A stretch of 64,000 bases of DNA from an uncultured Thermoplasmata archaeon. Lineage in GTDB: Archaea; Thermoplasmatota; Thermoplasmata; Lutacidiplasmatales; UBA184. A model generated the notes under the pieces. It searched no databases, had not been told where the DNA came from, and worked only from the letters and a program-made list of their open reading frames with translations. Position 1 is the first letter of the stretch; every line of letters starts with the position of its first letter. The position numbers and the translations under genes are program-made. Below, one piece after another: positions 8,380 through 38,319 of this stretch. Location of the stretch: contig CAWEHV010000002.1 of assembly GCA_963809035.1 (NCBI GenBank), positions 1,716,701 to 1,780,700 on the forward strand. The letters are read 5' to 3'.

Positions 8380-8430
8380 TGTAGTCGAACCCCGGGGGGT
8401 TCGAATCCACCGATATCCCCCTCGTTCAAA
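8380..8430 (+). other. tRNA-like dispersed repeat (…CCCCGGGGGGTTCGAATCCACC…)
   Basis: T-arm-like motif. Shares 'ccccgggggttcgaatccac' with 8575-8605. Confidence 0.3.
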
Positions 8431-8560
8431 CTCATCCGGTAACCTGACGACATGTGGGACGAAACCTATGGGTCAGGGAGCCTCCCACCGAATGACGGAC
8501 TTGGCTGGCTCTTAGCCAGGGTTACTTCACCGCCACTCCGCTCTCCTCGCCCACCCTCCT

Positions 8561-8620
8561 GGATCGAAGTGGTCGGCGTCCACTCCCCCCGGGGGTTCGA
8601 ATCCACTTAGATCGCCACCC
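8561..8620 (+). other. tRNA-like dispersed repeat with conserved core 'GGCGTCCACTCCCCCCGGGGGTTCGAATCC' inside an 11-bp stem
   Basis: Stem 8562-8572/8603-8613 (one mismatch) encloses the core. The core recurs at 16919, 30225 and, partially, 32405. Confidence 0.35.
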
Positions 8621-8815
8621 TCAGCGCATTGATCGGTAGCCACATCTCAGACTAGGCATAGGCGAACCGGGAGGAGTGCTCACTCACAAGTGACGCGGAC
8701 CCTCCGGGCCCGTGATGCAATAGCGCCCGCGCAAACATTCCAAGCCGCGATTTGGAGATATCTCTGGAGTATATTTCACTCAGGCTTAAGCGCCTGGTCA
8801 CCCCTAGGATAATCG

Positions 8816-11800
8816 ATGACGGACCGTAGTGCCGCACATGACTCCGCACCGGGCTCACGCGTCACTCAAGGCGGGCACCGATCGCGATTCCGGGTGCTTT
8901 CCGCACTGCGGTCCCGATCATCGCGGCGCGCCATTCTGGTGGTAGTAGTCGCGGTCCTCGCGCTAGGGATCCAGTCGGTTGCTCCTGCTGGCCACGCCTC
9001 ACCCGCATCCGCAGACGTCCGTTCGGCAATCGCCACCGGACCAAACCCGACCGGAGTTCCGAACCTTGTCGCCGCGGCGCAGCAATCGCTCACCTCGGGG
9101 GGCGGGCCGGTAGCAGGGGAACATTGGGCGTGTAGCATTCGGGGAGGGACCTCCTTCCAATGTGGGAGCGATGCGTCTGCCGAATCCACCGGGTTGGCGA
9201 GCACTCTTGGGTGGACCCAAATCGGGGTCAGTCCTCCTCTTGATCCTGGTGGGCTCATGGCCTACGACGTTGCAGAATCTGCTGTCGTACTCCTTGCTTC
9301 TGCCGGTATCAACCCTATCACTTCGAACACATCGACCTGGACCTACGCGAACGGAACATGGGCGCCGGTGGTCACCGCGATCAATCCCCCTGACTGTGGC
9401 GGATCCGTAATGGCCTACGATGCGGCTGATTCCGAGACCGTGCTCTTCACAGGGGCTAATTGCACCGGTAGCGACCAGACCTGGATCTTCCAGGCCGACT
9501 CGTGGCTGCACCTCCACCCCTCGATGGTCCCTCCGGCCCGAGATGGCGCGATCCTTACGTACGACCCGTCAAGAGACTATGCCGTGCTCGCCGGGGGTTA
9601 CAATTCGTCGTGTGGGGGTTTCTGCAGCGATACGTGGGACTTTTCCGGCGGAAATTGGACCAACCTCACAGGCCAAGTAGCGGGGGCTCTCCCGGGTCGC
9701 GAAGGTGCCGCGGCAGCTTACAACCCTTCGGATGGCGACGTGTTCGTCTTCGGCGGAGGAGGAAGTTCCGGGAGTCTTAACGACACTTGGGCCTTCAACG
9801 GCACCGCCTGGTCCCAGGTGCCTCTCGGCGGGAGCGAACCGGAAATGTTCGCTCCCCTACTGACGTACGATTCGGCCGATGGCTACCTGCTGCTCGCTGA
9901 CGGCGACTCCACGGGATGCGTAGAAGTGTGCCCCAACCAGACGTGGAGCGTCGTGTCGGGAGCCTGGACCAAGATCACTCCTACTGGGCCGTTGCCGCCA
10001 CCGAGTGGAGATTGGTCCTGGACCTACGACTCAGCGGCGGCCGCTGTGGTTCTCTTTGGGGGCCCATTTGCATATTCCGTGTACCCGATCACTGGTTCCA
10101 CATGGACCTACGTGGGCGGGGGATGGTTGAATCGGAGTCTGTCACAACCTCCCCCTCCGCGTTCCGAGGCAAGTTTGGTCTACGACGCGGCCGACGGGTA
10201 CGTCCTACTCTTTGGAGGATGGACCGTTCCGTCCGGCGGGAATTCTTACTTCATCGGGGATACCTGGAGCTACTCAAATGGGGTCTGGACTAACCTGACG
10301 GGATCTCAAACGACCGCACCTGGCGCCCGATCCGGCGCGGCAATTGCATACGACGCTGCCGATGGATACGTCATCCTCTTTGGTGGCGAGAGCCCGAGTT
10401 GTCACGGCGGGACGAACCCGTCTTTCCCCGTCTGCGGTGACACATGGGAGTTCATCGGCGGCAAATGGACCCGACTCACCCCTTCCATCGCGCCTTCTAA
10501 TCGGAGCAACGCGGGCATGGTGTACGACGTCGCTGATGGGGAGGTGGTCCTCTTCGGCGGGACCAACGAACTAGGTCTCAATGATACGTGGACCTTCAGC
10601 GCAGGGGTTTGGACCAACATCACCACCTGGAGCCCGCACCCGCCGCCTACCTCACCCATTGCCTCCGCCGGGCTCACGTACGACGCAGGTGACGGGTACC
10701 TCCTGCTGTTCGGTGCGGGCTTGAGTCAGGCCCCATGGATCAACAATGATACCTGGGCGTTCCACGCGGGTCTCTGGACGAACCTAACAGCTTCGGTTCG
10801 GGGGGCTCCGTCTCCTGAGGTGGGGGGAACCCTTGCGTACGACCCGACCTACGGAGTCTCGGTTGAGTTCGGCGGGTGCCTGACTGACGATTGCAGTGTG
10901 CTAGGCGGTCAGACCTTTACCTACGTCAACTCAAACTGGACAGCCCGTTTCCCTCCCCAAGAGCCCAGCCCGCGCGACGGGTCCCAGATGGTGTTCGATT
11001 CGGCGGACGGAATCCTCCTACTCTTCGGCGGGGAAGTTGTCCTCGGGGACAGCCGAGGGGTCACCGGTGATCTCTGGGAGTTCGGCATGGTCTCGACTAC
11101 TCTCTCGGTTCAGAAGTTTACTTCCTCGCCAGATGTATCCGACGTGGGCCTGCCAATAACTTTGCATGTCTCGACAGCAAACGGGAACGGCACGCTGAGC
11201 TACTCTTACATCGACCTACCACATGGCTGTCTGACGTCGAACGCATCCAGTCTCACATGCACGCCGGCCACCGCTGGGACGTATTCTGTCGGAGTCGTCG
11301 TGACCGACACTGCAGACCAGCAAGCATCCGCTCAACTCACTCTCACGGTGAACATGGTCCCGTCCATCACTACCTTCCAGGCATCCCCCAATACAACCAA
11401 CGTCGGCAATCGAACCCTCCTTGAGGCGGTTGTGACAGGTGGAACTGGCAGCTACTCGTACCAGTATACGGGTCTCCCACCCGGGTGCCTCTCCCAGACC
11501 GTTCCGACCCTCCCGTGTCAACCCAACACGGCCGGCAATTACACCGTCTCCGTCAACGTGACGGATTCCGTCGGGGGGAAGGCGATGGCCAGCCTCGGAC
11601 TGACGGTCGAACCGGCCAGTGTCGGGACTTATCCGCAGGTTTCTAGATTCGCGGCCTCTCCGTCACCGATCTCCCTCGGGAACGAGACCAACTTCTCGGT
11701 CGATGTGGTCGGCGGGAATACCGGAATGACGTTTGAGTACTCCGGCCTTCCGCCCGGATGCACTTCAGCCAATGTAACAACGCTCCCATGCACACCCACC

Positions 11801-12367: not shown

Positions 12368-12483
12368 ATTCGAGCGAAGGTCGGTGCATTGCTGGAGCGA
12401 CGGTGCCTGGCCAGATGCCTCCCATGCGTCCTGGAGCATTGGGATAGTCTCCTTGAGGTCAAGGGACCTCGTGGAGGCAGCCC

Positions 12484-13470: not shown

Positions 13471-14935
13471 ATGACGACATATTGGTCATCTCTTGCCGGC
13501 AAACCATTCGTTACAGTGAGTCCCACAGGTGGAGGGACGCCGCCTAACGACGGAGCGGACTTCGGTCCGGATACCTTGCTCCACAACGTCGGTCCGAGGA
13601 AGACAGTCACCAATGGCATTCAGGAAGCAATCACGGCTATGGCCGGCGTTGAGAATGAAATCTATTGCTTGGCAGGATCATATTCGATTGCAGCGAGTCT
13701 GTACAACAATCATAGCGGCCAGGTGGCGAGATTCTCAGCCGGGGCAATACTCAACTTTAGCCCGACGGGGACGTATGAGACCACCGATCTCAGCCGGCCC
13801 GTGCGATATTCTGGTGGGGACCCAGCGTACCCCCAATGAGCAGAATTATCACGATTGTTACTGGCTCGGAAACGGTGCCCAAATCATTGGGAGCGGTCTC
13901 TCTGGCACGACTCCAGAGGAAGTCTTCGGCGCTGTTCACTCGGCCGCTTCGGTCTACTCGGTTGGGTACAAACTAGTAGTCGAAGGTTTCACAATCAGCA
14001 ACATCGGAAATATCTCATTCATTATCTGTGCGAATAACTACGCCACTGGCGTAACCTACAAACAGCAGGTTCGGCAAGTCCGTTTTTCTAGGATTACGGC
14101 GACATGGTATTCCGGACTTGACTACACCACTGGTGCTTCAGGAATGCTGGTCCACGGTTCCGCTCGTCAGGTTCTGATCGAGGACTGCCTCCTCGATGCG
14201 AGAGGCATTGACGGCTCGCCCCTCCCAGACTTATCAAACTGTTTTATCCATGGGAACGCTGGCGACACAACTCAAATTGTTGTTAGAAGAAGCATGTTTC
14301 TGCAGCCAATTACCTCCGGGTCATGCATGTTCAGCATGGGGTCTTGCTGGGAACTCCAGGGGAATGATTCTGTGATAAAGGGGAACACTGGCCCAAATGA
14401 TGCGCACAGGATTTCAATCGAGGGGTGCGTTTTCGATTCGGGTCGTACGTTGCCCACCGCAAGCGGTTGTGGAGGAGGATACATCGATGATTGCAACGCC
14501 AATTGTAGCACAGTTACTGGTCACATCAAGGAAGTCGTGTTTAGGCGGACCCACTTAGTCAATGTGTACTCGGGTTACCATGCACAGACTGCCGCTGTCT
14601 TTGGAGAATTGAGCTTCAAGGATGGCACCCCACTAGCGGCGTGGTTCCCGGACCAGACACCTCCGAGCTACGTGAGAAATGACCTCCCAAATCGGATTCC
14701 GGGGGACAGCGGGCAGAATCTGAATCCGCCCTCCATAGGTCCATTCTCGTATCAAAACCTAAATGGTTTCAAAATCACGGTGGTCGTAAGCCTAGGTTCC
14801 GGTGTATCCGTCAAGATCAACGGTGCCTTGGTTGGGGTGCCGGCTGGGGCTTTTCAATTGGCACACGGTGACACGATTGTCGTCTCCTACAGCAGCTCCC
14901 ACCAGCCGAATATTTTCGCCCTCTCCATCACCTAG
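13471..14935 (+). pseudogene. Pectate-lyase-superfamily right-handed beta-helix protein, paralog 1, single-nt frameshift near 13795
   Basis: N-terminus (13471 frame) and body (13529 frame) each align to paralog 15337-16710. The frames switch at 'DLS|RP..DILVGTQ'. Either a real frameshift or a sequencing error. Confidence 0.55.
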
Positions 14936-15336: not shown

Positions 15337-16710
15337 ATGGCAGCGAATTGGGCCACCCTCTCCGGAAAGCCATTCGTAACAGTGAGCCCAACCGGAGGAG
15401 GCACACCTCCTAACAATGGAGCCGACTACGGTCCGGATACCTTGCTTAACAATGTAGGCCCGGGTAAGACTGTCACTAGCGGAATCCAGGAGGCCATAAT
15501 GGCACTCCCTTCAACCGGTGGTACCGTTTACTGCCTGGCAGGTGCGTTTGCCATAAGTGCCAGTCTCTTCAACACGGGGAATTATCAAGTCGTTCAGTTT
15601 TCCGCCGGCGCCATTCTCGAATTCAGCTCCTCTGGGACCTACGTATCCACAGACTTGGCCGGGGATACGGACATCCTAGTTGGTACTCAAAGGACTCCAA
15701 CCGAATTGAATTTTCATGACTGCTACTGGCTTGGGAATGGCACCCAGATCCTTGGAAGCGGTCTGAGTTCGGAATATGTCTTCGCTGCCCAACATTCAGC
15801 GTCCTCCGTTGACGCGGTCGGTTACAAATTGGTAGTAGAGGGTTTCACGATTTCAAATGTCGGCAACAGCGCCTTCATTATCGGAGCCAACAATTACTCG
15901 GGCGGGGTAACTTATTCACAGCAGATTCGCCAAGTTCGATTCTCGAGAATTTCCGCCACATGGAAGAGCGGTACGTCTGGAGCTGGACTTGTGATCGAGG
16001 GGTCGGCCCGTGAGATCCTCATCGAGGACATAACACTAGATACATCGGCTATGGAATCTAATACCTACAACAACTGCTTCATTCGAGGGGCGTCGGGTGA
16101 CACCGAAGATGTCGTTATTGCTCGGTCGACATTCATTCAGGAACCACATAATGGAAACGTGTTCCAAGTCTCTGCAAACACTGGGACTGACAATCCTACT
16201 CAGCCGAGATACGTTTTCAATGTTCGCTTCGAGGATTGTGTGTTTGATTCAGGATCTGCAACCGTGAGCTACAAGAATGCAGGCGGAGGATGGATCGCGG
16301 ATAACAATTCAGGGAGTTCACATCCCGGATTCGTTTACAATGTTGAGTTCTGCCGATGCGAGTTCCTCTATGTCGGGATTACCTTCCAATCCTCAGGGAC
16401 GGGATCGTCCCAGTTTGGTTATCTCCGATTTTCCGAGGGCTCGATTCCTAGCGGGTTTTCTGGCAGCCTTCTCGGCAGAGGCCCGGGCGACCCCGGAACC
16501 ACCCTTTCACTCACAAGTGGTGTGGCCTACACCAATCAGGATGGGTTCGAGGAGCGTATCATCATCTCAGGTGGAGGGGTGACCTCGATCTCACTAAACA
16601 ACCAGGGTACTGGCGTCTTGTCTGGAGCCTTCGTGCTTCGTGACGGGGATTCCTTGACGGTCATTTGGTCCGGCTCCCCGCCGACGGTGATGCTAAAGCA
16701 GCCATTCTAG
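15337..16710 (+). CDS. Pectate-lyase-superfamily right-handed beta-helix protein (tailspike/glycosidase-like fold), paralog 2
   Basis: N-terminus 'TGGGTPPNNGADYGPD...GIQEAI...GGTVYCLAGAF' matches the pectate-lyase-superfamily 'GDGVTDDT.AIQ.AI...GG.VY.P.G.Y' signature. Repeated 'ISNVGNSAFIIGANNYSGG' and 'CVFDSGS' beta-helix rungs. Confidence 0.6.
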   Translation: MAANWATLSGKPFVTVSPTGGGTPPNNGADYGPDTLLNNVGPGKTVTSGIQEAIMALPSTGGTVYCLAGAFAISASLFNTGNYQVVQFSAGAILEFSSSGTYVSTDLAGDTDILVGTQRTPTELNFHDCYWLGNGTQILGSGLSSEYVFAAQHSASSVDAVGYKLVVEGFTISNVGNSAFIIGANNYSGGVTYSQQIRQVRFSRISATWKSGTSGAGLVIEGSAREILIEDITLDTSAMESNTYNNCFIRGASGDTEDVVIARSTFIQEPHNGNVFQVSANTGTDNPTQPRYVFNVRFEDCVFDSGSATVSYKNAGGGWIADNNSGSSHPGFVYNVEFCRCEFLYVGITFQSSGTGSSQFGYLRFSEGSIPSGFSGSLLGRGPGDPGTTLSLTSGVAYTNQDGFEERIIISGGGVTSISLNNQGTGVLSGAFVLRDGDSLTVIWSGSPPTVMLKQPF

Positions 16711-16904: not shown

Positions 16905-16960
16905 CTTGGTCAGGTCGGCGTCCACTCCCCCGGGGGGATCAAATCGACCAGAGTCTCGGG
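16905..16960 (+). other. tRNA-like dispersed repeat (core GGCGTCCACTCCCCCGGGGGGATCAAATCG inside a ttggtc/gaccag stem)
   Basis: Same core as 8575 and 30225. Confidence 0.3.
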
Positions 16961-17178
16961 TCCGGACGGACTCGATCCTCACAGGATCTAACCCATGGTT
17001 TCCATGCGCTCCCTGGACGGTTTGTGGGCACGATGCCTACCCAGTAGACCATAGTCCAATCTATGCAATCCTTGCGGTCGGTCCTCGTCCCGCTCGCTGA
17101 TCGCGGTCCCTGTCATCGATCGCGCGCGCCCACAGCCCGAATTTGCCTGCGGCGGGTACGTACGGAGCCGGGCCAAGA

Positions 17179-17824: not shown

Positions 17825-17884
17825 AGGCTGCAAATTGCACGCCCGCGACTTACACTGAACCTTTGGCCGATTGGCGCTCGACGC

Positions 17885-18807: not shown

Positions 18808-19869
18808 CTAGTGCCGCGTCCACCAGCGGAGTGCGGGGCGTGAATTCGTCACGCAGTGGATCCGATTGAGCCGTCGAATGGCGAGGCGGAGTGCTTCCTT
18901 CGCCTCGCCCCAGTCGGTGTAATTCGACCCGGTGAAGGACCATCGTCGTATCGTTCGGAAATGGGTCTCGATCGGGTTCAGGTGGCTGGCGTTGGTCGGT
19001 GTGGGTACGAAGGTGATCCTCAACCGTTGGGCCGCGGCCATCGCCGCCGGCGTGGTGTGCGTGGAGAGGTTGTCCTGGATCAGATAGATCCGTCCTCCGG
19101 AGGGATACTTCCCTCGGACCCAGTGGAGGAACCTCACGTACCCCGCGCCGTTCTTCGAGGGGGTGAGGTAGCCCCGGAACCGATGGTGGTAGTAGTCGTA
19201 GGCCCCCATCAGGTAGCGAACTCCACCGAGTCGTTGGTAGGTCGCTGGGACTCGGTCGGGGTGCCCCGACCGAGCCCACGTGTGGCCCCCGTAGGGTTGG
19301 AGAGAGATCGGCCCCATCTCGTCCACCGAGACCACGATCGGAGGGTTGTGCGGTCGGTTGGTGAGCTCGTTCAGTCGACGTAGCTTCTCGGCGAACTTGG
19401 GGTCCTTCGAACTCTTCCAGGTCTTCACCGACTGGAAGGTCACCGACTCTTCGAGGAGGATCTGCCGGAGTCGCTCCCGACTGATCGACTCCACCACCCC
19501 CTCGAAGACCAGGGTCTCCTGTAGGAGGTCGAGGGACCAGCTGGTAGGACCCTGCCACCCGTGGTCCTTCGGTCGGGAGAGGGCGAAGGTCACGATGGCC
19601 TTGCGGACCTCGGGGGTGAACTTGGGCTCGGGGCCCGGGCTCTTCTTGGGGGAGAGAGCGTCCCGACCGATCCGATTGTAGTCCTTGATCACCCGTCGGA
19701 CCCAGTCCTCGCTCCAGAGGACGAGGCTCGCGATCTTGGGCGGAGAGAAGCCTTGGAACGAGTGCAGCACGATCATCGCACGCTTGACCACGGTCGGGTC
19801 ATTCGATCGTTTCACGAGACGAGAGAGGGCCTGTCCCTCTTCGTCCGAAAGCTCGCGGACTCGCAGCAT
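18808..19869 (-). CDS. IS630-family DDE transposase
   Basis: 353 aa. N-terminal HTH ('KRAMIVLHSFQGFSPPKIA'). DDE region 'IQDNLSTHTT' ... 'NASHLNPIE', characteristic of IS630. Confidence 0.85.
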   Translation of the reverse strand: MLRVRELSDEEGQALSRLVKRSNDPTVVKRAMIVLHSFQGFSPPKIASLVLWSEDWVRRVIKDYNRIGRDALSPKKSPGPEPKFTPEVRKAIVTFALSRPKDHGWQGPTSWSLDLLQETLVFEGVVESISRERLRQILLEESVTFQSVKTWKSSKDPKFAEKLRRLNELTNRPHNPPIVVSVDEMGPISLQPYGGHTWARSGHPDRVPATYQRLGGVRYLMGAYDYYHHRFRGYLTPSKNGAGYVRFLHWVRGKYPSGGRIYLIQDNLSTHTTPAAMAAAQRLRITFVPTPTNASHLNPIETHFRTIRRWSFTGSNYTDWGEAKEALRLAIRRLNRIHCVTNSRPALRWWTRH

Positions 19870-19952
19870 GGGGAGGAGGCATCACCTCCCCCGGGAAAGT
19901 ACTTGCGCTAGAAGTCAGAAACCTCGAACTCCCCCACTAGACGCGGCACTAG
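18808..19952 (-). mobile_element. IS630/Tc1-mariner family insertion sequence (1145 bp) with 13-bp terminal inverted repeats CTAGTGCCGCGTC
   Basis: TIR at 18808-18820 and its inverse at 19937-19952. TA dinucleotides at both junctions. Single transposase ORF. Confidence 0.75.
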
Positions 19953-25335: not shown

Positions 25336-25347
25336 GAGGCTTGCGAT

Positions 25348-27057
25348 ATGTCAGGTCAATTGGGGACAGAGCGCACACAGAATCCTACAAGTTTGAACGG
25401 GTGGCGAGTTGGCCTAAGGGCCGTTTCAGAACTTTCTGACCTCTCGAGAGAGTTTCGCGGTCTCCAGGGCACCTTTCTCGGACTGACGGTAGTTCAACTG
25501 TTATTGAGCGCTGCTGTGCCTCTGCTCATTGGGGCGATTATCGACGACATTTCCGTCCATGATTTCGACGTATCCGCCGATGTGGTTACGATTTTCATCA
25601 TCCTTGTAATCTATCGATTGGTTGGATTGGCAACCCAATATGTCCTGGCTCTAACTCAGATACGCTTAGGAATCTCGACACAAACAGGCATGGTTTCCTC
25701 GGTCAATTACACGTCGATCGGGGCACTCTCCCAATTCACTAAAGGCGACCTTCTATCTCGGATAATGTCCGATGCCCTCACAGTCGCCTCAAGTGCTGTT
25801 ACCTTTACACTATCCCTCTATGGACTTATTGCCTCGACGGCAATCAGCCTCGTAGTTCTTCTTTATCTCTCTCCCCCAATGACCGCCATCGCTGTCCTCT
25901 CTCTCCCTGTCTTCTATCTAGTCGTTCTCGCGACCGGGAATAAGATCACGCGGGAAACGTTACAGGAGCGAAGAATCTACTCAGCGTCAACTGAAGAATT
26001 GAGAGTAATCCTCGATAGTCAATTGACACTTCGCGCGCTCTCAAGTCAGGATTACTCAGTAAAGAGGTTCCAGGGTGCAATGGCCTCGTGGTCGACAAGG
26101 GCACGTCGGCTAGCCTGGCTTGGGTCCATTACCGGAAATTCTAGCGGGTTCCTGTTAGGGGTAGTGCCCTTGGGCATCTTCGTTCTTGGTCTCTACCTTG
26201 TTAGCCGAGGCGAAACTAGCCTGGGTTCGTCAATCGCATTCTTCGTTTATGTTCCGACGTTATTCGCATCAGTAATGGGCATAACTGCTCTCTACACATC
26301 TATCGCTTCAGTAACGCCCCGACTTGAACGGGTGCGGGAGGTGTCAGCACTCCGGACCGAGCATTCGAGGGGTATGAGTCCTAACAAACTAGTGCCTGTG
26401 GAAGTGCGGAATCTGACCGTCACGGCCCCCGGGGTTGTCATTCTCAGTGGTGTCACGCTGACGATTAATCCGGGCGTAACGGTAGTCTCGGGACCAAACG
26501 GCTCAGGAAAATCCACACTTCTCAAGGTGATCGCCGGCATTGAACACGTGTACCAAGGAAGTGTTCGCCTCGGCGGATACGATCTTAGACAAATCTCATT
26601 GGACACGGTGAGAAAGTCAATCGTGCTCGTTGGTGATCACGATGCCTATTTTGCGGGCACTCTTCGAGATTGCATAAGTCTTGGAACGACCGTACCTGAC
26701 GTCCAAATCGAGGAGGCCCTACGAGTCGTCGGCTTGAACCATCTCTCGACGCAAATCGGTGAGGCAGTCCATCCCCTCATCGACAGATTGTCAACAGGAG
26801 AACGTCAACGCTTTGCGGTAGCAAGGGCGATACTCAAGCAACCTGAACTAATTATTCTTGACGAATCGCTGTCAGCAGTCGACGGGACTCAGGAGGCGAT
26901 TATTATCCAATCGATAATTGACTTCGGAATACCTGGAATCGTAGTCGTAAGTCATAGGGAACCGGTCCTCAGAGCAGCTAGTGCCCGATTTCGTCTACTC
27001 AGAGGCTGCCTGGTCGACCCTCCACATGCAGAACCAAGCGATTTAGATGGCCAATAG
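25348..27057 (+). CDS. ABC exporter, fused transmembrane domain plus ATPase
   Basis: Six-TM N-terminal half. Walker A 'GPNGSGKST', signature 'LSTGERQR', Walker B 'IILDESLSAVD'. No C39 peptidase domain seen. Confidence 0.8.
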   Translation: MSGQLGTERTQNPTSLNGWRVGLRAVSELSDLSREFRGLQGTFLGLTVVQLLLSAAVPLLIGAIIDDISVHDFDVSADVVTIFIILVIYRLVGLATQYVLALTQIRLGISTQTGMVSSVNYTSIGALSQFTKGDLLSRIMSDALTVASSAVTFTLSLYGLIASTAISLVVLLYLSPPMTAIAVLSLPVFYLVVLATGNKITRETLQERRIYSASTEELRVILDSQLTLRALSSQDYSVKRFQGAMASWSTRARRLAWLGSITGNSSGFLLGVVPLGIFVLGLYLVSRGETSLGSSIAFFVYVPTLFASVMGITALYTSIASVTPRLERVREVSALRTEHSRGMSPNKLVPVEVRNLTVTAPGVVILSGVTLTINPGVTVVSGPNGSGKSTLLKVIAGIEHVYQGSVRLGGYDLRQISLDTVRKSIVLVGDHDAYFAGTLRDCISLGTTVPDVQIEEALRVVGLNHLSTQIGEAVHPLIDRLSTGERQRFAVARAILKQPELIILDESLSAVDGTQEAIIIQSIIDFGIPGIVVVSHREPVLRAASARFRLLRGCLVDPPHAEPSDLDGQ

Positions 27058-27394
27058 TGGGATGCCCCTTAATCCTGGCCCGGGCCCACCTTTTACCTGG
27101 TAGGAAAGTCCGCCCTCAACCGGCTCCTTTTGCCACGCCATTGCGACCTAGTATCCTTAAGACGAGTCGATGGCCGGCCCTCTTTTCATGTGAAATCAGA
27201 CAAGGTTTCCAGAGGCCAGGACGGGACGCATCGCCACTGAAATGCGCACTGAGATCGAGCGGGAGGAAGTACTCATGAGATTGCATCGAGTCTAGTCTCT
27301 CTCCTCTGCACATGATTGTGCGTAGAGTAGATTGCCCAAAATATGGGGTGTAAACGTGGCGCCCTCGACCCGTCAAGAATCATTCTCGAGCAGG

Positions 27395-28438
27395 CTAGGA
27401 GGGTAGGCTGGCCGGGGGAGGAAGTAGTTCATTTAGCACTATTATCGGATCCTGGCTTAGGAGAACGTCATTGAGTAGAATTTGCGACTTGTTGGCGGCG
27501 ATGAAATTCAGTACCTCCTTCTTCTTGTCGCTAAAGATGTGGAGACACGCCTCGCACATTGACGAATAGTGCCGCGTGTCTCCGACGGCTGATAGAATGC
27601 CCCTGGTCCCTCGCATATGTATCCACCAGAAAAGGAGGTTCGCCCGCGCAGCCTGGACCATACTGGCAAAGCTAGTATTCATGACATTTCCGACGGAAAG
27701 GCCATCGGTATCGAACGCCGCGTGACCGCAGCAAAGGTGGACACTCCCCTCCGGGTGGACCGCGAGAGTCTTTCCAATCTGTTTGCAGCCGATCTTGTCG
27801 TTCGCCCTCTCGGAGGCAGGCAGTCGTCCCGGTTGGTCTGTAAAGAGGCGGCCACGCCCCGTCGCGCTCGGTTTATCTTCTAGAAAAATCACCCGCTGGG
27901 CTAGTTCCTCACTTGACAACCCCAGGTACTCAGCAGTACCGGCAATGACCGATTTCGAACTATGCTTGCTCCAATTATCGACTATCGTCGCCACCGCAAC
28001 ACGCAAGTTCTGAGCCAAACTCGCTTCGACAAAACGATAAACATTCTCTACGGGCATGAATTCAGCATGGTAGTCGTCGTAGCTCGTATTTATCTCGTCC
28101 AGTCCCGCCTCCTTAAGTCGGGAGACCATACTTGATGCGGAATCCTTGCTTCTGGCCCAATAGGCATTTGTAACAACTCGGGTAAGAAGGCCCATTTCGT
28201 GTGATTTCCGGATGCCATACTCCAAGTCCGCCATGTGAAGTGTTGGCTCACCCCCGGTAAAGACGACCACACCGATAGTTCCGAGTTCTTTGGCACTGTC
28301 CAGCGAGCGGTCAAGGACAACCCGCGGCATTCGAAGGGATACTTCGGGCGCACTGCTCACGCTACAATGTGCGCACCGGAAGTTACATTTCAAATCAAGG
28401 AATATTGACAATATCGTAGGGATCATACTCCGGTCCAA
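27395..28438 (-). CDS. Radical SAM enzyme with C-terminal SPASM/twitch-type auxiliary-cluster domain (peptide- or cofactor-modifying maturase family)
   Basis: 'CNFRCAHC' (CxxxCxxC) near the N-terminus, 'GGEPTL' SAM motif, C-terminal Cys cluster 'CKQIGKTLAVHPEGSVHLCCGH...CEAC'. Confidence 0.75.
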   Translation of the reverse strand: MDRSMIPTILSIFLDLKCNFRCAHCSVSSAPEVSLRMPRVVLDRSLDSAKELGTIGVVVFTGGEPTLHMADLEYGIRKSHEMGLLTRVVTNAYWARSKDSASSMVSRLKEAGLDEINTSYDDYHAEFMPVENVYRFVEASLAQNLRVAVATIVDNWSKHSSKSVIAGTAEYLGLSSEELAQRVIFLEDKPSATGRGRLFTDQPGRLPASERANDKIGCKQIGKTLAVHPEGSVHLCCGHAAFDTDGLSVGNVMNTSFASMVQAARANLLFWWIHMRGTRGILSAVGDTRHYSSMCEACLHIFSDKKKEVLNFIAANKSQILLNDVLLSQDPIIVLNELLPPPASLPS

Positions 28439-28443
28439 CTAGG

Positions 28444-28908
28444 CTATTCGCGCGAAGGGCCGTCAATAATCACAATCGCAATCAGTACGATGATAACAAC
28501 CGAAACCGTACTGACAGCCGCACTTGTCGCTGTAAAATAGCTCAGATTGACAAAAAGACCAGTGTTGGAGTAAACATACACGCTACTGGGAGGAGGCCAG
28601 GGACGGTCAACGATTATGACGGATAAGGCCGGTCGCTCAAGATTGCCCTTGGCGAGATCAACTGGGACACCTCTTTGGACTTGACCAGCCAGGTTTGCCA
28701 GATACTGGCGGTGGTACGTTGAAACAGGCTCGATCTCCTTTAGCGAGACGTTGGCACCGAGGTCGATACCGAAGGTAGATTTCACCACTCCTCGGGCATC
28801 TGCGCTGACTGCTTCCCTGAATTCCTTCTCAAATCGCGCACGCCCAACAAATCGATAAACTTCCTGGGGGTTAAGGCTAGGAATTTCCAATATTGACTCG
28901 GAATCCAT
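28444..28908 (-). CDS. 154-aa Cys-free protein with C-terminal hydrophobic segment, encoded immediately upstream of the radical SAM gene; candidate substrate/partner
   Basis: 5-nt spacing to the rSAM gene, same strand. C-terminal region 'SVYVYSNTGLFVNLSYF' is rich in aromatic-x-Asn triplets, followed by a TM helix. Confidence 0.35.
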   Translation of the reverse strand: MDSESILEIPSLNPQEVYRFVGRARFEKEFREAVSADARGVVKSTFGIDLGANVSLKEIEPVSTYHRQYLANLAGQVQRGVPVDLAKGNLERPALSVIIVDRPWPPPSSVYVYSNTGLFVNLSYFTATSAAVSTVSVVIIVLIAIVIIDGPSRE

Positions 28909-29344: not shown

Positions 29345-29971
29345 GTGATACGTGATTCTGTGACAAACTCGCTCAACACTGATCGGTATGAGTTCAATCT
29401 CTCTACATCGGCCAAGATTGCAATTCGGAGATACTCCTACGGTCGATTCGCTGGGTTCGTCATCGCGATTTTCTTGATTTGGCTTGGGTTTTGGCTTTTC
29501 CAAGATATCGCTTCCCAAGGTGTTGACCTTGTGATTGGAGTTACTTGGGTGGTTGCCGGCTATACTCTATTCGTTCTCCTACGCAGCAAACCCCCAGTGC
29601 CTCTATGTGCGGTCACACTCCTTCCGGAAGAAGTGAGGCTTCGCTTCGGAGACGGTACCGAGCTCAACCAACAATGGACGGACCCCAAATTTAGGTTGCT
29701 GTTTTGGGATTTCTCAATAGATTCCGATTCATCTAGGGGAGAAGCTCACTCCGTCCGCATGATTGGCCCAGACGGATGGGAGTGGAACGTCCCCTCGGCG
29801 CTTGCAGATGTCTTGATCCGAGCAGCGAAGACTCACTCGTTGCCCGTCTTGGTCCGCATAGAATTTGTGAGAGTGGGGAGAACCAAGTATTCCGTCATAG
29901 CGACACATATTGGAGACCTGGAGCATATCTCCGAACCCTCGGAAGCATCCCGCAGGCCCCGGTCTGATTGA
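29345..29971 (+). CDS. Hypothetical membrane protein (two N-terminal TM helices plus soluble domain)
   Basis: ORF with plausible start. Hydrophobic helices 'FAGFVIAIFLIWLGFWLF' and 'VIGVTWVVAGYTLFVLL'. No recognisable catalytic motifs. Confidence 0.4.
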   Translation: MIRDSVTNSLNTDRYEFNLSTSAKIAIRRYSYGRFAGFVIAIFLIWLGFWLFQDIASQGVDLVIGVTWVVAGYTLFVLLRSKPPVPLCAVTLLPEEVRLRFGDGTELNQQWTDPKFRLLFWDFSIDSDSSRGEAHSVRMIGPDGWEWNVPSALADVLIRAAKTHSLPVLVRIEFVRVGRTKYSVIATHIGDLEHISEPSEASRRPRSD

Positions 29972-30189
29972 GAGTGCTATGAGGGGTCTTCCACTGCGGC
30001 ATGTACCACCCAGCAATTGGAAGGTACGGTAATCCCATTGGGGCAAATCGAAACAACCCAATCGGACAGTGGCCCGCTTCGTGCGCCACAGGTGGTGCTC
30101 GGAATTAGTCCGGGCAGCTTTTTGGCAGGTCCGAACCCATGGACCGAAAAATCCGACTTGGCCCAGAAACCTTGGGATTTGGACCCTCG

Positions 30190-30265
30190 GGGGTGGCAAA
30201 TCCCCCCGGTGGTTCGAGTCTGCCGGCGTCCACACCCCCCGGGGGTTCAAATCCGCTAGTTTTGC
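30190..30265 (+). other. tRNA-like dispersed repeat pair (GGTTCGAGTC followed by GGCGTCCACACCCCCCGGGGGTTCAAATCC)
   Basis: Same conserved core as 8575 and 16919, preceded by a G6/C6 hairpin. Located at the right border of the low-GC island. Confidence 0.3.
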
Positions 30266-30731
30266 CATGCACATGCGGTATCGGTAGAGCAGCATGAATC
30301 CACCGACGATTGTGGCCAAGGGCTAGCTCACGGCCCGTCATCGGCCGCGGTCGCGCGCACCGAGTCATGGGCAGTCTGCTCAGGCATCGTGCGTGTCCGG
30401 CGCCGAGACGGTTCTCGTAACATCGCCTGGATCGTTTCGCACCAAGATCGCATCGGTAACTGTTAGCAGGTGGCACCGACGGGCGCCCCGGCTCGAGGTG
30501 ATCTCTAGGCCTCGGGGCTGAGAGTTGAGGCCGCTTCTTATGCCCGTTCCTTGAGGGTCCCGAGCAGACCCTCTGGAGGCCCGTGCGGGCTGGGTGCCGC
30601 TCTGTCTCCAAACCAAAGCAGATTCCCGAAATCCGGACAAGCTTAACTGGTCGATTTGGCCGCGGCGAACTATGGCCGCACCCACCTATCGAGCACATTC
30701 TATTTGAGCCGCAGGTGCTAGTGAATCTGTC

Positions 30732-31619
30732 TTGACGCTCGGACGTGAATTCGAGCCCGAAGCGGATGGTACGATCCAAGCGTTCGAGTATCTTCTCAGT
30801 GAGCTGGAGGGACACCTGGGCAAGCCGGTCGAGTTCCGCGAGAGCGCGGATGCGCTTCTCTGGACCTCTACCCTGAGGACCTTGGTTAAGATGTTCACCG
30901 AACTATTAGAGGGACTCGCCGCAACCGACAGAAGTGAGGGGCCCGCGAAGATTCTGCTCGAATCACTCGCTGTTACACTTACGGACCTCCAACGGAGCTT
31001 GGACTGGGAGAATCTCGCAAGGTCCCCTGAACCCGAGTTTGGGAGCACTGTGGAGAATCCAGAGGATAACATCCGTCGATGGCTGGAGGCGGGATACTGG
31101 CGGCCCCTGCGCCAAGCCGTTGCAAGGAGTCAACCCCTCATTGAGATCGCGGTTCGACGGTTGCGGAGGGTTCGTCCACTCATAGGTCCTTTAGCTGAAC
31201 TCAGAGACGAGGATAATCGCTTCGCATCGCATCAGACCAATCTTCGAACCCGGCTTGAGGATTTGACTGACGCGGAACGGAGGGCATTCAAGGTGAGGGT
31301 GGCCGTCGGCTCGCTTACCCTCGTCGGAATCGCGGGAGGCGTACTTCCGCTCGCGCTGCTGATTATTGGGGGAGCCGAGGCTCAAGGGCTGATCAGCTCC
31401 GAATCCGCGTTGTTGCTGGGTTGGTTTCTCGCCCCTGCACTCGCGCTTATCGCTGCGTTCCTTGCGGCCGGAGGGTGGCTCGCCGCTGCTCGCGAAGTAG
31501 CTCAGGCACAGGTTTCGAAGCACGCTAGGATTCGCGATGAGTGGTCGACCGCCCTGACACATGCTCTGGCCGAAGTCTTCATCTCGCAAGCGGACAGTCG
31601 GAGGCTTCGCACCGGATGA
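30732..31619 (+). CDS. Hypothetical protein with C-terminal TM helices
   Basis: 295-aa ORF. Stop overlaps the next start (ATGA at 31616-31619), suggesting co-transcription. Confidence 0.4.
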   Translation: MTLGREFEPEADGTIQAFEYLLSELEGHLGKPVEFRESADALLWTSTLRTLVKMFTELLEGLAATDRSEGPAKILLESLAVTLTDLQRSLDWENLARSPEPEFGSTVENPEDNIRRWLEAGYWRPLRQAVARSQPLIEIAVRRLRRVRPLIGPLAELRDEDNRFASHQTNLRTRLEDLTDAERRAFKVRVAVGSLTLVGIAGGVLPLALLIIGGAEAQGLISSESALLLGWFLAPALALIAAFLAAGGWLAAAREVAQAQVSKHARIRDEWSTALTHALAEVFISQADSRRLRTG

Positions 31620-31930
31620 CGGTTCAAGAGGTCGAGATTGCCGTGTTCAGCACGGCTGTAACGCTTGCGGGACTGGGCGGACCGCTCCTGTCGTTCTACC
31701 TGCCTAACCGTAGCTCCCCCGACTACGGGGAACGTACGAAGGGTATGCTCGCCCTGCTACTTTGGACATGTTGGCTTCTGGCCTCGGCTTTCGTGTGCCT
31801 CTGGTCTGTTTGGTCGGGCGACGGCGCTCTGTACGGATTCGGTCCGGTCATGTTTGGTGTCGGCGCTGTTTGGCTTGTTTATCTACTGGTCTTGGCGAGC
31901 AGCTCCCGACCCGGTCCTGTAAGTCCATAG
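31616..31930 (+). CDS. Small polytopic membrane protein (about 3 TM)
   Basis: ATG at 31616 overlapping the upstream stop. Hydrophobic helices 'AVFSTAVTLAGLGGPLL', 'MLALLLWTCWLLASAFVCLW', 'VMFGVGAVWLVYLLVLA'. Confidence 0.4.
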   Translation: MTVQEVEIAVFSTAVTLAGLGGPLLSFYLPNRSSPDYGERTKGMLALLLWTCWLLASAFVCLWSVWSGDGALYGFGPVMFGVGAVWLVYLLVLASSSRPGPVSP

Positions 31931-32051
31931 ACCCAAGCCCCAAGACCGAGAACCACAGGGCACTCTGGAACGCATGTTTCGGTGGGGCCTATGCGAGCGC
32001 CCCCTGTCGGAGCGGGCGAACTCGCAGCACCCCTCATCGGCGCCGTCCGAA

Positions 32052-32375
32052 CTACCCTATGTGGACGGCGCATCCTGCCACTTCGCGCATCTCTGCGACG
32101 TACGGGACGCTGTAGTGCCTCTGGATTGTGCGAGGCGAATCGCCAGTCAGTTCGGCGACCTCTTCCGGCTTCCAGCCGCGCGCCTGCGCAATTTTGACAG
32201 TCGTCGCTCTCAACGTGTGAAACAGCTTTGGCGGTAGCCCTGCCGCCTTGAGCGAACGCTGAAGGACGTCATACGCCGCGCGACCGCTTAGGTGGCCATG
32301 GATCCCCTGCCAGGCCGGGAACCCCCAGCGCCTACCCCGTGGGAGGTCGCGAAGGTACGCTCGCAAGTCCACCAC
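32052..32375 (-). pseudogene. Tyrosine integrase C-terminal catalytic fragment (int(C)-like remnant)
   Basis: 'HTLRATTVKIAQARGW...TIQRHYS' is the HxxR...Y catalytic end of a tyrosine recombinase. No N-terminal domain. Sits 25 nt from the tRNA-like segment 32400-32490. Confidence 0.6.
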
Positions 32376-32399
32376 GACGCGCCCATGGATTCGGACGTG

Positions 32400-32490
32400 A
32401 GGTATCCACTCCCCGGCGGTTCAAAATCCTCAGAGTAGTGGATACGGACGGATTTGGCGGCACACGGGTTCAAATCCAGCGCGTTGGAGC
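32400..32490 (+). other. tRNA-like segment (…GGTTCAAAATCC… / …GGGTTCAAATCCAGCGCGTTGGAGCACCA) adjacent to the integrase fragment
   Basis: Two T-arm-like motifs. 8-bp stem gtatccac/gtggatac. Ends in GCACCA. Confidence 0.3.
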
Positions 32491-38310: not shown

Positions 38311-38319
38311 GCCCGTTAG

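What the first reader, a model, noticed from the sequence alone, without database searches (positions are those of the whole stretch)
8380..32490. Family of dispersed tRNA-like segments sharing the core GGCGTCCAC(T/A)CCCCCCGGGGG(T/A)TC(G/A)AATCC at the borders of mobile blocks
Six sites carry a canonical T-arm motif: 4010-4110, 8380-8430, 8561-8620, 16905-16960, 30190-30265 and 32400-32490. Three share a ~30-nt core and a fourth shares it partially, embedded in site-specific long stems (for example 8562-8572 pairing with 8603-8613). None folds into a complete cloverleaf by eye. Each sits next to an integrase, an integrase fragment, an IS copy or an island boundary. They could be fragmented or intron-containing archaeal tRNA genes used repeatedly as att sites, 3'-half remnants left by successive integrations, or a structured small-RNA or MITE family.
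Basis: seen in the sequence. Interest (0 to 1): 0.55.

Follow-up and report, generated by a model that had tools for sequence, protein, structure and literature searches.

The report
Integration-site scars derived from tRNA genes
The "tRNA-like" segments are not tRNA genes or a small-RNA family; they are most likely short DNA scars left where mobile elements integrated next to tRNA-Gln and tRNA-Ala genes in a Thermoplasmata archaeon, an ordinary phenomenon with one unusual repeat that merits a modest follow-up.

Summary
The sequence observation is real. The ~30-nt core occurs three times on the + strand (8575, 16917, 30225; none expected by chance), with partial or degenerate copies at 8390, 30203, 30176(-) and 32405. 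No site is a tRNA: ARAGORN (with introns) and Rfam find nothing, while the same Rfam model scores real tRNAs in relatives at 60-70 bits.

The six sites form two unrelated families.
- Sites 4010-4110 and 5833-5880, plus inverted 8302-8321, carry the exact last 19 nt of tRNA-Gln(UUG). In six related loci an intact tRNA-Gln lies ~60 nt upstream of the homologue of the integrase at 5939-7210. These are classical att remnants.
- The core family recurs in Thermoplasmata relatives as direct-repeat arrays ending beside tRNA-Ala(UGC). Full copies there begin with the exact last 13 nt of tRNA-Ala (reverse complement). Pairs of copies bracket three different toxin-antitoxin cassettes.

In the window, copies B and C coincide with GC steps, and the degenerate copy E abuts a truncated small integrase.

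Best reading: att-type junction repeats from serial integrations, now decayed (confidence ~0.55). A recombinase-driven cassette system or a MITE is not excluded. Novelty is low to moderate.

The parts
4024..4083 (+). Degenerate pseudo-tRNA-Gln / att repeat copy 1. The repeat proper is 4036-4083; 4065-4083 is the exact last 19 nt of tRNA-Gln(UUG), including 1 nt of trailer.
   Evidence: Direct repeat with 5833-5880, 88% over 48 nt. Alignment to tRNA-Gln of L015/L018/L019. BLAST 19/19. No tRNA call.
4084..4108 (+). Second, more degenerate tRNA-Gln 3'-end-like fragment (GGTTCGAATCCGACCGAGGCTGT) in tandem with the first.
   Evidence: Sequence; alignment row win4070.
5821..5880 (+). Pseudo-tRNA-Gln 58 nt upstream of the integrase. 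The 5' end CCCCGAGGTGTA and the 3' 19 nt match tRNA-Gln; the middle is replaced.
   Evidence: In relatives an intact tRNA-Gln occupies this position relative to the integrase.
5939..7210 (+). Tyrosine integrase, 423 aa, of a Thermoplasmata/archaeal family that sits beside tRNA-Gln(UUG) in relatives.
   Evidence: PF00589 E = 1.6e-4. PHROG_1 integrase E = 5e-11. 83 homologues found, many named integrase by their sources. Context.
8302..8321 (-). Inverted copy of the tRNA-Gln 3' fragment (AGGCGAAACCGCTCGGGGCT) on the far side of the integrase.
   Evidence: Inverted repeats I1/I2, 95% over 20 nt.
8376..8605 (+). 230-nt module bounded by the palindromic half-copy D (8386-8408, TCGAACCCCGGGGGGTTCGAATCC) and the full core A (8571-8604). 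It has 20-nt terminal inverted repeats, 8380-8399 / 8586-8605.
   Evidence: I4. The same module is 94% identical in metagenome contig L005 892-1122, with unrelated flanks on both sides.
16913..16946 (+). Core copy B (GGTCGGCGTCCACTCCCCCGGGGGGATCAAATCG). The preceding TTGGTCAGGTCGG matches the reverse complement of the tRNA-Ala 3' end at 10 of 13 positions.
   Evidence: GC step from 54.5% to 60.8% at this point.
30176..30254 (+). Composite site C: inverted motif copy 30176-30195 (-), motif copy 30203-30222 (+) and core copy C 30221-30254 (+). The outer copies form a ~20-bp inverted repeat.
   Evidence: Fold z = -2.8. The 53-nt double-motif arrangement is shared with L004 2922-2974 at 83%. GC step from 52% to 59.6%.
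32403..32496 (+). Degenerate core copy E (32403-32430, GGTATCCACTCCCCGGCGGTTCAAAATCC). It is followed by a second T-arm-like piece whose 13-mer at 32465-32477, CGGGTTCAAATCC, equals tRNA-Ala positions 50-62.
   Evidence: (E = 0.56, weak).
32076..32399 (-). C-terminal 108 aa of a ~200-aa tyrosine integrase, truncated at about residue 86 exactly where copy E begins. The N-terminal part is not in the window.
   Evidence: Homologues P0002-P0007 of 175-210 aa carry PF00589. tblastn. DNA alignment with intact genes.
18808..19952 (-). IS630-like insertion sequence (DDE_3 transposase, 353 aa) with 31-nt terminal inverted repeats. A partial inverted copy lies at 17612-17824, ~650 nt right of core B.
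   Evidence: Precomputed Pfam for the identical gene in L013; repeats.
62091..62104 (+). Isolated GGTTCGAATCCACC, 14 nt shared with copy D. Its relation to the family is uncertain.

Best explanation
The segments are DNA-level recombination junctions (att-type repeats), not RNA genes. They were left by tyrosine-integrase-mediated integration of mobile elements at tRNA genes and later decayed and rearranged. There are two families.

Family 1 (4024-4108, 5821-5880, inverted 8302-8321).
- These are copies of the 3' end of tRNA-Gln(UUG), the target of the 423-aa integrase at 5939-7210.
- Shown: the window repeats keep the exact last 19 nt of the tRNA, from the T loop to one base past the 3' end, and the integrase lies at the same ~60-nt distance as in relatives.
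- Inferred: crossover within the T-loop to 3'-end segment, repeated events giving tandem fragments, and an inversion giving the copy on the other strand.

Family 2 (core copies A 8571-8604, B 16913-16946, C 30221-30254; partial copies D, C' and an inverted one; degenerate E).
- It is a ~34-bp repeat made of a 5+1+5 palindrome (CCCCC-N-GGGGG), a T-loop-like arm (TTCRAATCC) and a left arm (GGTCGGCGTCCAC).
- Shown in related genomes: the repeat forms same-orientation arrays that end ~24 nt from the 3' end of tRNA-Ala(UGC). Full copies start with the exact last 13 nt of that tRNA. Pairs of copies bracket small cargo, namely three different toxin-antitoxin pairs and a hydrolase.
- Inferred mechanism: small elements integrate at the 3' end of tRNA-Ala through a short identity block (CCGACCAGTCCAT plus trailer).
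- The palindromic motif is inferred to lie in both arms of their attP as a recombinase-binding site.
- Successive integrations would push older junctions outward, giving arrays.
- Recombination between the directly repeated motifs, together with IS activity, would delete or reshuffle the cargo.

In the window the array is old. The tRNA-Ala part is diverged (9-10 of 13 positions), the anchoring tRNA is not in the window, and the blocks between copies (8.3 and 13.3 kb) are cargo-type genes of differing GC content.
For: Not tRNA genes.
- Searches find nothing; the positive control is.

Family 1.
- The integrase family has 83 homologues.
- In six loci from relatives an intact, 100% conserved tRNA-Gln(UUG) lies ~60 nt upstream of the integrase, in conserved chromosomal synteny.
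- Window 4065-4083 and 5862-5880 match tRNA positions 56-74 at 19 of 19; the alignment is.
- Direct and inverted repeats flank the integrase.

Family 2.
- The core occurs 3 times against 0 expected.
- All hits in public genomes are Thermoplasmata.
- Copies cluster in direct orientation in L001, L003, L004, L005 and L006.
- The last copy lies ~24 nt from tRNA-Ala in L002, L003 and L006, and from a truncated tRNA-Ala in L004.
- The 13-nt tRNA-Ala 3' end is exact inside full cores.
- ParE-type toxin plus antitoxin lies between paired cores in four genomes, on the cores' strand. These comprise three non-orthologous pairs.
- Conservation stops abruptly at both ends of the core.
- L005 shares the 230-nt D-A module but neither flank.
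- GC steps occur at B and C.
- E abuts a truncated integrase.
- The palindrome is kept by a compensatory change, CCCTC-C-GAGGG in L001. A 1-nt centre cannot close the full 5-bp stem as RNA, which suits a duplex-DNA protein site better.

Literature. Partial tRNA copies at island ends, tandem islands and inverted partial copies are well documented in archaea (PMC4383910, PMC9897764).
Against: - No intact tRNA-Gln or tRNA-Ala is in the window, so no complete island (regenerated tRNA plus displaced fragment) can be delimited here.
- No integrase could be tied to the core family. Neither integrase family occurs in the 8-kb loci L001-L006, and intact homologues of the small integrase have no core nearby.
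- No empty-site or excised-circle evidence was obtained. Near-identical contigs (L011, L013) are colinear with the window.
- The T-loop-like arm of the core lies on the opposite strand to the tRNA-Ala fragment, which a simple 'displaced 3' half' does not explain.
- The breakpoints seen between the window and L005 fall at the outer edges of the palindromic motif. They do not fall in the tRNA-identity block where the model places the crossover.
- The window cores keep only 9-10 of 13 tRNA-Ala positions, so their link to tRNA-Ala rests on relatives.
Confidence: 0.55

Rival explanations
1. Cassette system. The palindromic motif is itself the crossover site of a dedicated site-specific recombinase, possibly host XerA or an unidentified enzyme. 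Segments between two motifs are then modules that excise as circles and re-insert at any other motif. This would resemble integron cassettes or the Xer-dependent dif modules of Acinetobacter plasmids, and the tRNA-Ala region would be only the preferred array site.
For: - The same 230-nt module, bounded by motif copies, sits in different contexts in the window and L005, with homology ending exactly at the motif edges.
- Arrays of same-orientation copies are spaced 0.07-1.5 kb apart. Each interval holds one small unit, and three different toxin-antitoxin pairs are flanked by the same repeat.
- Copy D reads as 11-bp imperfect inverted arms (9 of 11) around a 6-bp centre: GTAGTCGAACC-CCGGGG-GGTTCGAATCC (sequence).
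- The palindrome is conserved with one compensatory change.
- dif modules often carry toxin-antitoxin genes (PMC6449649, PMC13141974).
Against: - No recombinase gene lies next to the arrays in L001-L006.
- The integron core sites GTTRRRY / RYYYAAC are absent (sequence).
- dif modules are flanked by inverted sites, whereas these are direct.
- Most copies have only one recognisable half-site.
- The exact 13-nt tRNA-Ala end inside full copies is better explained by tRNA-targeted integration.
- Only one module is seen in two contexts.
Confidence: 0.2
2. MITE or REP-like repeat. The motif is the terminal inverted repeat of a small non-autonomous transposable element (the 230-nt module 8376-8605; the 78-nt unit 30177-30254). 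Solitary cores would be solo ends.
For: - 20-nt terminal inverted repeats at 8380-8399 / 8586-8605 (I4) and 30176-30195 / 30235-30254.
- The module recurs at 94% identity with different flanks in L005.
- GTAG precedes the palindrome in D, as in REP elements (sequence; the REP comparison is from my own knowledge).
Against: - No target-site duplication at either copy (sequence).
- No autonomous IS with matching ends. The IS630 ends differ and the weak motif-like match at 37900-37917 showed no matching IS ends around it.
- Copy number is very low. The 29-nt pattern matched one stretch in each of four genomes among 185,579 species representatives, and two metagenome contigs.
- Most copies (B and the full cores in relatives) have no inverted partner.
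- Copies cluster beside tRNA-Ala rather than being dispersed.
Confidence: 0.12
3. Functional RNA: tRNA-like small RNAs, split or intron-containing tRNA genes, or a structured cis element transcribed from the + strand.
For: - A T-loop consensus is present.
- A hairpin TGGAC...GTCCA upstream of the palindrome shows some two-sided changes across 13 copies. The covariation score is 0.132 against 0.085 in shuffles, reached by 1 of 500 shuffles.
Against: - No Rfam or ARAGORN hit, with a working positive control.
- Folding energies are no better than shuffles at five of six window sites.
- The hairpin register differs between copies and is absent in B and C.
- The 5' strand of that hairpin is simply the tRNA-Ala 3' end.
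- The central palindrome has a 1-nt centre, so it cannot close as a full 5-bp RNA hairpin.
- The flanks that would have to complete any fold are unrelated between copies.
Confidence: 0.04

Closest known systems
Genomic islands integrated in tRNA genes, with a regenerated tRNA at one end and a displaced tRNA fragment at the other, including tandem islands (Islander/TIGER, PMC4383910; Williams 2002 as cited in PMC9897764; archaeal examples such as PYG1 between partial and complete tRNA-Gln(UUG) in Pyrococcus yayanosii, PMC9897764)
   Same: - Exact tRNA 3'-end copies occur: 19 nt of tRNA-Gln in the window, and 13 nt of tRNA-Ala in relatives.
- A tyrosine integrase lies next to the tRNA-Gln copy at the same spacing as in relatives.
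- Direct repeats mark block borders, several junctions lie in series, and an inverted partial copy is present.
- PMC9897764 also describes inversion separating partial and full copies.
   Different: - No intact target tRNA is in the window, and the integrase-proximal tRNA-Gln copy is itself degenerate.
- The core family is a composite: the 13-nt tRNA-Ala end is joined to a conserved 21-28-nt palindromic T-loop-like motif on the opposite strand.
- That motif recurs at both ends of the small islands, which carry no integrase.
Xer-dependent dif modules of Acinetobacter plasmids (PMC6449649, PMC13141974)
   Same: - Short (~28-bp) recombination sites bound small discrete modules, often toxin-antitoxin pairs.
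- The same module appears in different contexts.
- No recombinase is encoded in the module.
   Different: - dif modules are flanked by sites in inverted orientation with clear XerC and XerD arms.
- Here the copies are direct, most have one recognisable arm, they are chromosomal, archaeal and tied to a tRNA gene.
- Xer involvement is untested.
Integron gene cassettes and attC sites
   Same: Same-orientation arrays of imperfectly palindromic sites separate single small cargo units, including toxin-antitoxin pairs.
   Different: - No IntI-type integrase or attI is adjacent.
- The conserved GTTRRRY / RYYYAAC core sites are absent.
- The repeat is much shorter than the 57-141-nt length I recall for attC sites.
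MITEs / REP elements
   Same: They share short terminal inverted repeats, small size, intergenic location, and one module found in two contexts.
   Different: There is no target-site duplication, no parent IS, very low copy number, and clustering at one kind of locus.
SSV-type 'suicidal' archaeal integrases that split their own gene on integration (PMC7253208)
   Same: An integrase gene fragment ends exactly at an att-like repeat (32399 / 32403).
   Different: - Intact homologues of this ~200-aa integrase contain no core sequence inside the gene.
- The N-terminal part is not found in the window.
- This is therefore a truncation, not a self-split.

Membership tests
tRNA genes (canonical, intron-containing or split) | Cloverleaf recognised by a tRNA covariance model or tRNA finder | tested here: not met
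   Rfam RF00005 gives no hit in the window at the gathering score, nor at E <= 10 in 3800-9000 and 29900-32700. ARAGORN with introns up to 200 nt finds none at the sites. Positive control: 69.7 and 60.4 bits for real tRNAs in L002 and L015. tRNAscan-SE in archaeal mode and split-tRNA models were not available.
tRNA genes (canonical, intron-containing or split) | T stem of 5 bp flanking the TTCRAAT loop, followed by a 7-nt acceptor strand complementary to a 5' strand | tested here: not met
   Read from sequence. The flanking pentamers give 2-4 of 5 pairs. Sequence after AATCC is unrelated between copies.
att sites of tRNA-targeting integrative elements (displaced tRNA fragment) | Exact identity to the 3' part of a real tRNA gene | tested here: met
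   tRNA-Gln positions 56-74 match at 19 of 19 at 4065-4083 and 5862-5880. tRNA-Ala positions 62-74 match at 13 of 13 in full cores of L001 and L004. Window cores A and B keep only 9-10 of 13 (sequence).
att sites of tRNA-targeting integrative elements (displaced tRNA fragment) | Tyrosine integrase encoded next to the att site | tested here: inconclusive
   Met for the tRNA-Gln family (integrase 58 nt from 5880). For the core family there is only a truncated, apparently unrelated small integrase at E and none in L001-L006.
att sites of tRNA-targeting integrative elements (displaced tRNA fragment) | Island bounded by an intact tRNA at one end and the fragment at the other | tested here: inconclusive
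   Not met in the window, which has no intact tRNA. Met in the relatives L003 and L006: intact tRNA-Ala, a ~0.9-kb toxin-antitoxin unit, then a full or diverged core.
att sites of tRNA-targeting integrative elements (displaced tRNA fragment) | Presence/absence polymorphism or excised circular form | not testable with these tools
   Near-identical contigs are colinear with the window. Collection scans were exhausted, and no read-level data were available.
MITE | Terminal inverted repeats | tested here: met
   8380-8399 / 8586-8605 is 85% complementary over 20 nt. 30176-30195 / 30235-30254 also pairs.
MITE | Target-site duplication and a related autonomous IS with the same ends | tested here: not met
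   No duplication at the module ends in the window or L005. The IS630 ends differ and the weak motif-like match at 37900-37917 showed no matching IS ends around it.
Integron cassette array / attC | IntI integrase with attI next to the array; R'' RYYYAAC and R' GTTRRRY core sites | tested here: not met
   No integrase is next to the arrays in L001-L006. The motifs are absent from the core (sequence).
Xer/dif modules | 28-bp site with two 11-bp inverted arms and a 6-bp centre, flanking modules in inverted orientation, recombined by Xer | tested here: inconclusive
   Copy D fits 11-6-11 with 9 of 11 arm symmetry. Other copies have only one such arm, and all copies are in direct orientation. Xer binding was not testable.
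Rfam-described RNA families | Match to any of 4227 covariance models | tested here: not met

The most novel reading that the evidence does not exclude
The ~20-30-bp palindromic T-loop-like motif is the recombination site of a previously undescribed archaeal module-shuffling system. In Thermoplasmata this system would assemble arrays of small cargo units (toxin-antitoxin pairs, hydrolases, surface-protein blocks) beside tRNA-Ala without an element-encoded integrase. It would be an archaeal counterpart of dif modules or integron cassettes.
Probability: 0.15. Interest if true: 0.7.

Novelty: new member of a known kind. Interest (0 to 1): 0.35.

Why it matters
For annotation, these segments should be labelled as att remnants or pseudo-tRNA fragments and not as tRNA or sRNA genes. 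They mark the 4-32 kb stretch of the window as a mosaic of integrated and decayed mobile DNA.

The work also assigns a target, tRNA-Gln(UUG), to a widespread ~430-aa integrase family. It contains 83 detected homologues across Thermoplasmata, and sources label some as Methanomassiliicoccales, Hadarchaeales and Thaumarchaeota.

The core family is more interesting. Three different toxin-antitoxin cassettes sit between the same repeat next to tRNA-Ala in several Thermoplasmata genomes. That suggests either a family of integrase-less mini-islands mobilised in trans, or a cassette-type recombination system. Both can be tested directly with complete genomes and metagenomic read data.

Tried and rejected
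- ARAGORN at a lowered threshold (-ps80) gave 287 'tRNAs' in 64 kb, which is pure noise.
- The only default ARAGORN call, tRNA-Glu at 49879-49954, is not supported by Rfam even at E <= 10. It is probably a false positive.
- SSV-type split integrase at 32400 was rejected. Intact homologues lack the core inside the gene, and no N-terminal half is in the window.
- TnpB omega-RNA / IS605 right end was rejected.
  - The only TnpB-like ORF (L001 4621-6216) is 820 nt from the core, separated by another gene.
  - The 457-aa ORF upstream of copy B has no transposase or nuclease domain hit and by eye resembles a beta-helix protein.
- IS630 ends share only the 8-mer GCGTCCAC with the core, which is taken as chance.
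- A weak motif-like match at 37900-37917 (3 mismatches) showed no IS-type inverted repeats around it.
- Viral contig scans with three patterns gave nothing relevant. The nine hits for TGGACYGGTCGGCGTCCA lack the rest of the core and fall into just two recurring sequences, eight of the nine contigs under 14 kb. The single motif hit lies in an unrelated 619-kb contig.
- Look-ups of window proteins for strain variants gave only colinear contigs or nothing.
- PHROGs gave no viral hallmark in the blocks between cores.
- I tried to read the core as anticodon arm, variable loop and T arm: AGTGG-TCGGCGT-CCACT would give anticodon GGC. It fails on C33, a 6-C 'variable loop', and the absence of that stem in other copies.
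- One Pfam call failed because of wrong ORF coordinates.

Full report

Yes.
None was found in 100 dinucleotide shuffles.
- The T-loop consensus GGTTCRAATCC occurs six times exactly, all on the + strand, against 0.09 expected.
The sixth, at 62091, was not listed. Site 16905-16960 carries a two-mismatch version.
- Repeat finding and a profile built from 13 copies add more. There are partial copies at 8390-8408 and 30203-30222, an inverted copy at 30176-30195, and a weak degenerate copy at 32405-32425.
- All copies are intergenic.

**2. Are they tRNA genes?**

No.
- ARAGORN finds nothing at any site, with or without introns up to 200 nt.
- Rfam finds no family at gathering scores in the whole window. 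It finds no tRNA-like match at E <= 10 in 3800-9000 or 29900-32700.
- The same search scores real tRNA-Ala and tRNA-Gln genes of relatives at 69.7 and 60.4 bits, so the negative result is meaningful.
- The pentamers either side of TTCRAAT do not form a proper T stem. Sequence after AATCC is unrelated between copies.

**3. Are they a structured RNA?**

Unlikely.
- Five of the six window sites fold no better than shuffled sequence, with z between -1.1 and +1.0.
- Only 30165-30272 stands out (z = -2.8). That is a plain ~20-bp inverted repeat of the motif.
- The 'site-specific long stem' at 8562-8613 exists in the minimum-free-energy fold but is not significant (z = -0.45).
- Across 13 copies the central CCCCC-N-GGGGG palindrome is 98.5% symmetric, with one compensatory change (CCCTC-C-GAGGG in L001).
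- The upstream hairpin TGGAC...GTCCA is paired in 72.5% of cells.
- A palindrome with a one-base centre cannot close its full 5-bp stem as RNA, although a shorter 4-bp stem with a 3-nt loop is conceivable. It is more typical of a duplex-DNA site for a dimeric protein (inference).

**4. Where does the window come from?**
- The core pattern hits only Thermoplasmata MAGs among the representatives of 185,579 species: L001-L004, one exact stretch each. It also hits two metagenome contigs, L005 and L006.
- One window protein is encoded on NCBI GCA_049585255.1 contig JBAUZL010000202.1 with the same gene order.

**5. Family 1: tRNA-Gln-derived att remnants**

This family comprises 4024-4108, 5821-5880 and inverted 8302-8321.
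- The ORF at 5939-7210 is a tyrosine integrase: weak PF00589, PHROG_1 integrase E = 5e-11, and 83 homologues, many annotated as integrase.
- In six loci carrying homologues of 50-76% identity, the integrase sits ~60 nt downstream of an intact tRNA-Gln(UUG). That tRNA is 100% identical among the loci, in conserved chromosomal synteny from prefoldin to pyruvate kinase.
- The window repeat 4036-4083 / 5833-5880 (88% identical) ends with the exact last 19 nt of that tRNA, positions 56-74.
- The copy at 5821-5880 also keeps the tRNA 5' end (CCCCGAGGTGTA), and even the trailer resembles L015. Its middle is replaced, so it is not a functional tRNA.
- A second, more degenerate 3'-end copy follows at 4084-4108. 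An inverted one lies at 8302-8321, on the far side of the integrase.
- This is the classical signature of integration into a tRNA gene, with partial tRNA copies marking the ends (PMC4383910, PMC9897764).
- PMC9897764 describes an archaeal island between partial and complete tRNA-Gln(UUG). It also notes that inversions can place the copies on opposite strands.
- This site shares only the 11-nt T-loop motif with the other sites.

**6. Family 2: the core family (A, B, C, D, C', E)**

In relatives the copies are clustered and co-oriented:

| Locus | Core copies | Strand |
|---|---|---|
| L004 | 5361, 4497, 4429, 2922 | - |
| L001 | 7072, 7995 | + |
| L003 | 2317, 3176 | + |
| L006 | 1258, 1996 | + |
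| L005 | 925, 1121 | + |

- In L002, L003 and L006 the last copy is followed by a ~24-nt spacer ending GGGGAT(A/G). Next comes the reverse complement of an intact tRNA-Ala(UGC). In L004 a truncated tRNA-Ala fragment takes that place.
- Full-length copies start with ATGGACTGGTCGG. That is the exact reverse complement of tRNA-Ala positions 62-74. In L004:4429 part of the trailer is included too.
- The ~0.7-0.9 kb between two copies encodes an antitoxin (DUF7557 / VapB-like) and a ParE-family toxin on the cores' strand in L001, L003, L004 and L006.
- These are three non-orthologous pairs. Another interval in L004 holds an alpha/beta hydrolase.
- So small cargo units are bracketed by the repeat next to the 3' end of tRNA-Ala.

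**7. The window copies**
- Copies A and B keep only a diverged tRNA-Ala part, 9-10 of 13 positions. No tRNA-Ala is in the window.
- Conservation ends abruptly at AATCC on the right and at GG(T)CGG on the left.
- Copies B and C coincide with GC steps: 54.5 to 60.8% and 52 to 59.6%. Copy A does not.
- The intervening blocks carry cargo-type genes:
  - a Kelch/PKD surface protein;
  - two paralogous proteins that by eye resemble beta-helix proteins;
  - an IS630 copy and a fragment of another;
  - a beta-lactamase-family protein, an ABC transporter and a radical-SAM/SPASM gene.
- Copy E abuts, within 3 nt, the C-terminal 108 residues of a ~200-aa tyrosine integrase truncated at about residue 86.
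- Intact homologues have no core inside the gene, and the N-terminal part is absent from the window. This is therefore a truncation and not an SSV-type split.

**8. The 230-nt module 8376-8605**
- It runs from the palindromic copy D to core A and has 20-nt terminal inverted repeats.
- It recurs at 94% identity in L005 with unrelated sequence on both sides. Homology starts and stops at the outer edges of the motif copies.
- This fits an internal junction of a tandem array, which has the attP arrangement motif - spacer - tRNA identity - core, as at L004 4497-4429.
- It is equally what a mobile module or a MITE would show.

**9. Mechanism proposed**

Shown:
- exact tRNA 3'-end identities;
- integrase adjacency for tRNA-Gln;
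- arrays anchored at tRNA-Ala;
- cargo between repeats;
- abrupt homology breaks;
- GC steps.

Inferred:
- Small elements integrate at the 3' end of tRNA-Ala through the identity block CCGACCAGTCCAT plus trailer.
- The palindromic motif sits in both attP arms as a protein-binding site.
- Repeated integrations build arrays.
- Recombination between the directly repeated motifs removes cargo. This would give the minimal form seen in L002: tRNA fragment, core, spacer, tRNA.
- IS activity and inversions scatter the junctions, as in the window.

Weak points:
- No integrase is tied to this family.
- No empty site or circle was found.
- The T-loop-like arm is on the opposite strand to the tRNA fragment.
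- The window/L005 breakpoints lie at the motif edges, not in the identity block.

For these reasons I keep a cassette-type recombination system (0.2) and a MITE (0.12) as live rivals. A functional RNA gets 0.04.

**10. Comparison with known systems and novelty**
- Family 1 is an ordinary member of the tRNA-targeted island class. It adds a likely target assignment, tRNA-Gln(UUG), for a widespread archaeal integrase family.
- Family 2 works like att junctions of tandem tRNA-linked islands. It has an unusual composite repeat and integrase-less toxin-antitoxin units.
- Family 2 resembles, but fails the defining tests for, integron attC arrays, Acinetobacter dif modules (PMC6449649, PMC13141974) and MITEs.
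- I rate the finding as a new member of a known kind with interest 0.35. The most novel reading still open, an archaeal module-shuffling system based on this motif, gets 0.15 probability.

Noticed in passing
window 57171-57672 (and L005 355-857): A ~500-nt stretch with no convincing ORF is 80% identical by BLAST (87% mean column identity over a wider ~600-nt alignment) to a stretch of metagenome contig L005. In L005 it lies immediately upstream of the copy of the 230-nt module. There is no Rfam match even at E <= 1. It may be an undescribed structured RNA or a conserved regulatory region.
   Followed up: partly
window 49879-49954: ARAGORN calls a tRNA-Glu(CUC) here, but Rfam's tRNA model gives no match at E <= 10. 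It is probably a false positive, so the 64-kb window appears to hold no genuine tRNA gene.
   Followed up: partly
window 2426-2459 and 17095-17128; L004 4250-4280: A 34-nt repeat (CGCTGATCGCGGTC.CTGTCATCG..CGCGCGCG, 91% identical) occurs twice in the window. One copy is ~150 nt downstream of core B. A 26-nt exact match lies at a similar distance downstream of a core in L004. Its meaning is unknown.
   Followed up: no
window 13471-14935 and 15337-16710: Two adjacent paralogous ~460-aa proteins, which by eye resemble pectin-lyase/beta-helix proteins, have no Pfam or PHROG match. Their 5' regions are 75% identical over 168 nt. They sit in a low-GC (52-56%) block that ends at core B.
   Followed up: no
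window 45511-45597 and 49046-49132: An 87-nt direct repeat at 87% identity, 3.5 kb apart. It was not examined.
   Followed up: no
window 23863-28908: A low-GC cluster holds a beta-lactamase-family protein, an ABC exporter, a radical-SAM/SPASM enzyme and a small 154-aa ORF. It looks like a peptide-modification (RiPP-like) cargo cluster, and it ends at core C.
   Followed up: no
window 55964-56385 (-): Two small adjacent ORFs. The 61-aa ORF resembles the antitoxin of the cassette in L004 (tblastn E = 1.6e-7). The 79-aa ORF looks HicB-like by eye. No core copy lies nearby.
   Followed up: partly
window 32765-38313 (-) and about 38415-39992: Right of the last core copy lie DUF6884, a weak PLD-like match (E = 1.7e-4, below the Pfam cutoff), a 576-aa protein, a helicase, and then a gene with a faint DDE_Tnp_1 (transposase) match. 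This looks like a defence or mobile block, so the mosaic region extends beyond the finding's coordinates.
   Followed up: no
L001 4621-6216: A 531-aa TnpB/Cas12f-like ORF (PF07282) lies ~820 nt upstream of the first core copy in this relative. It is judged unrelated to the repeat.
   Followed up: partly
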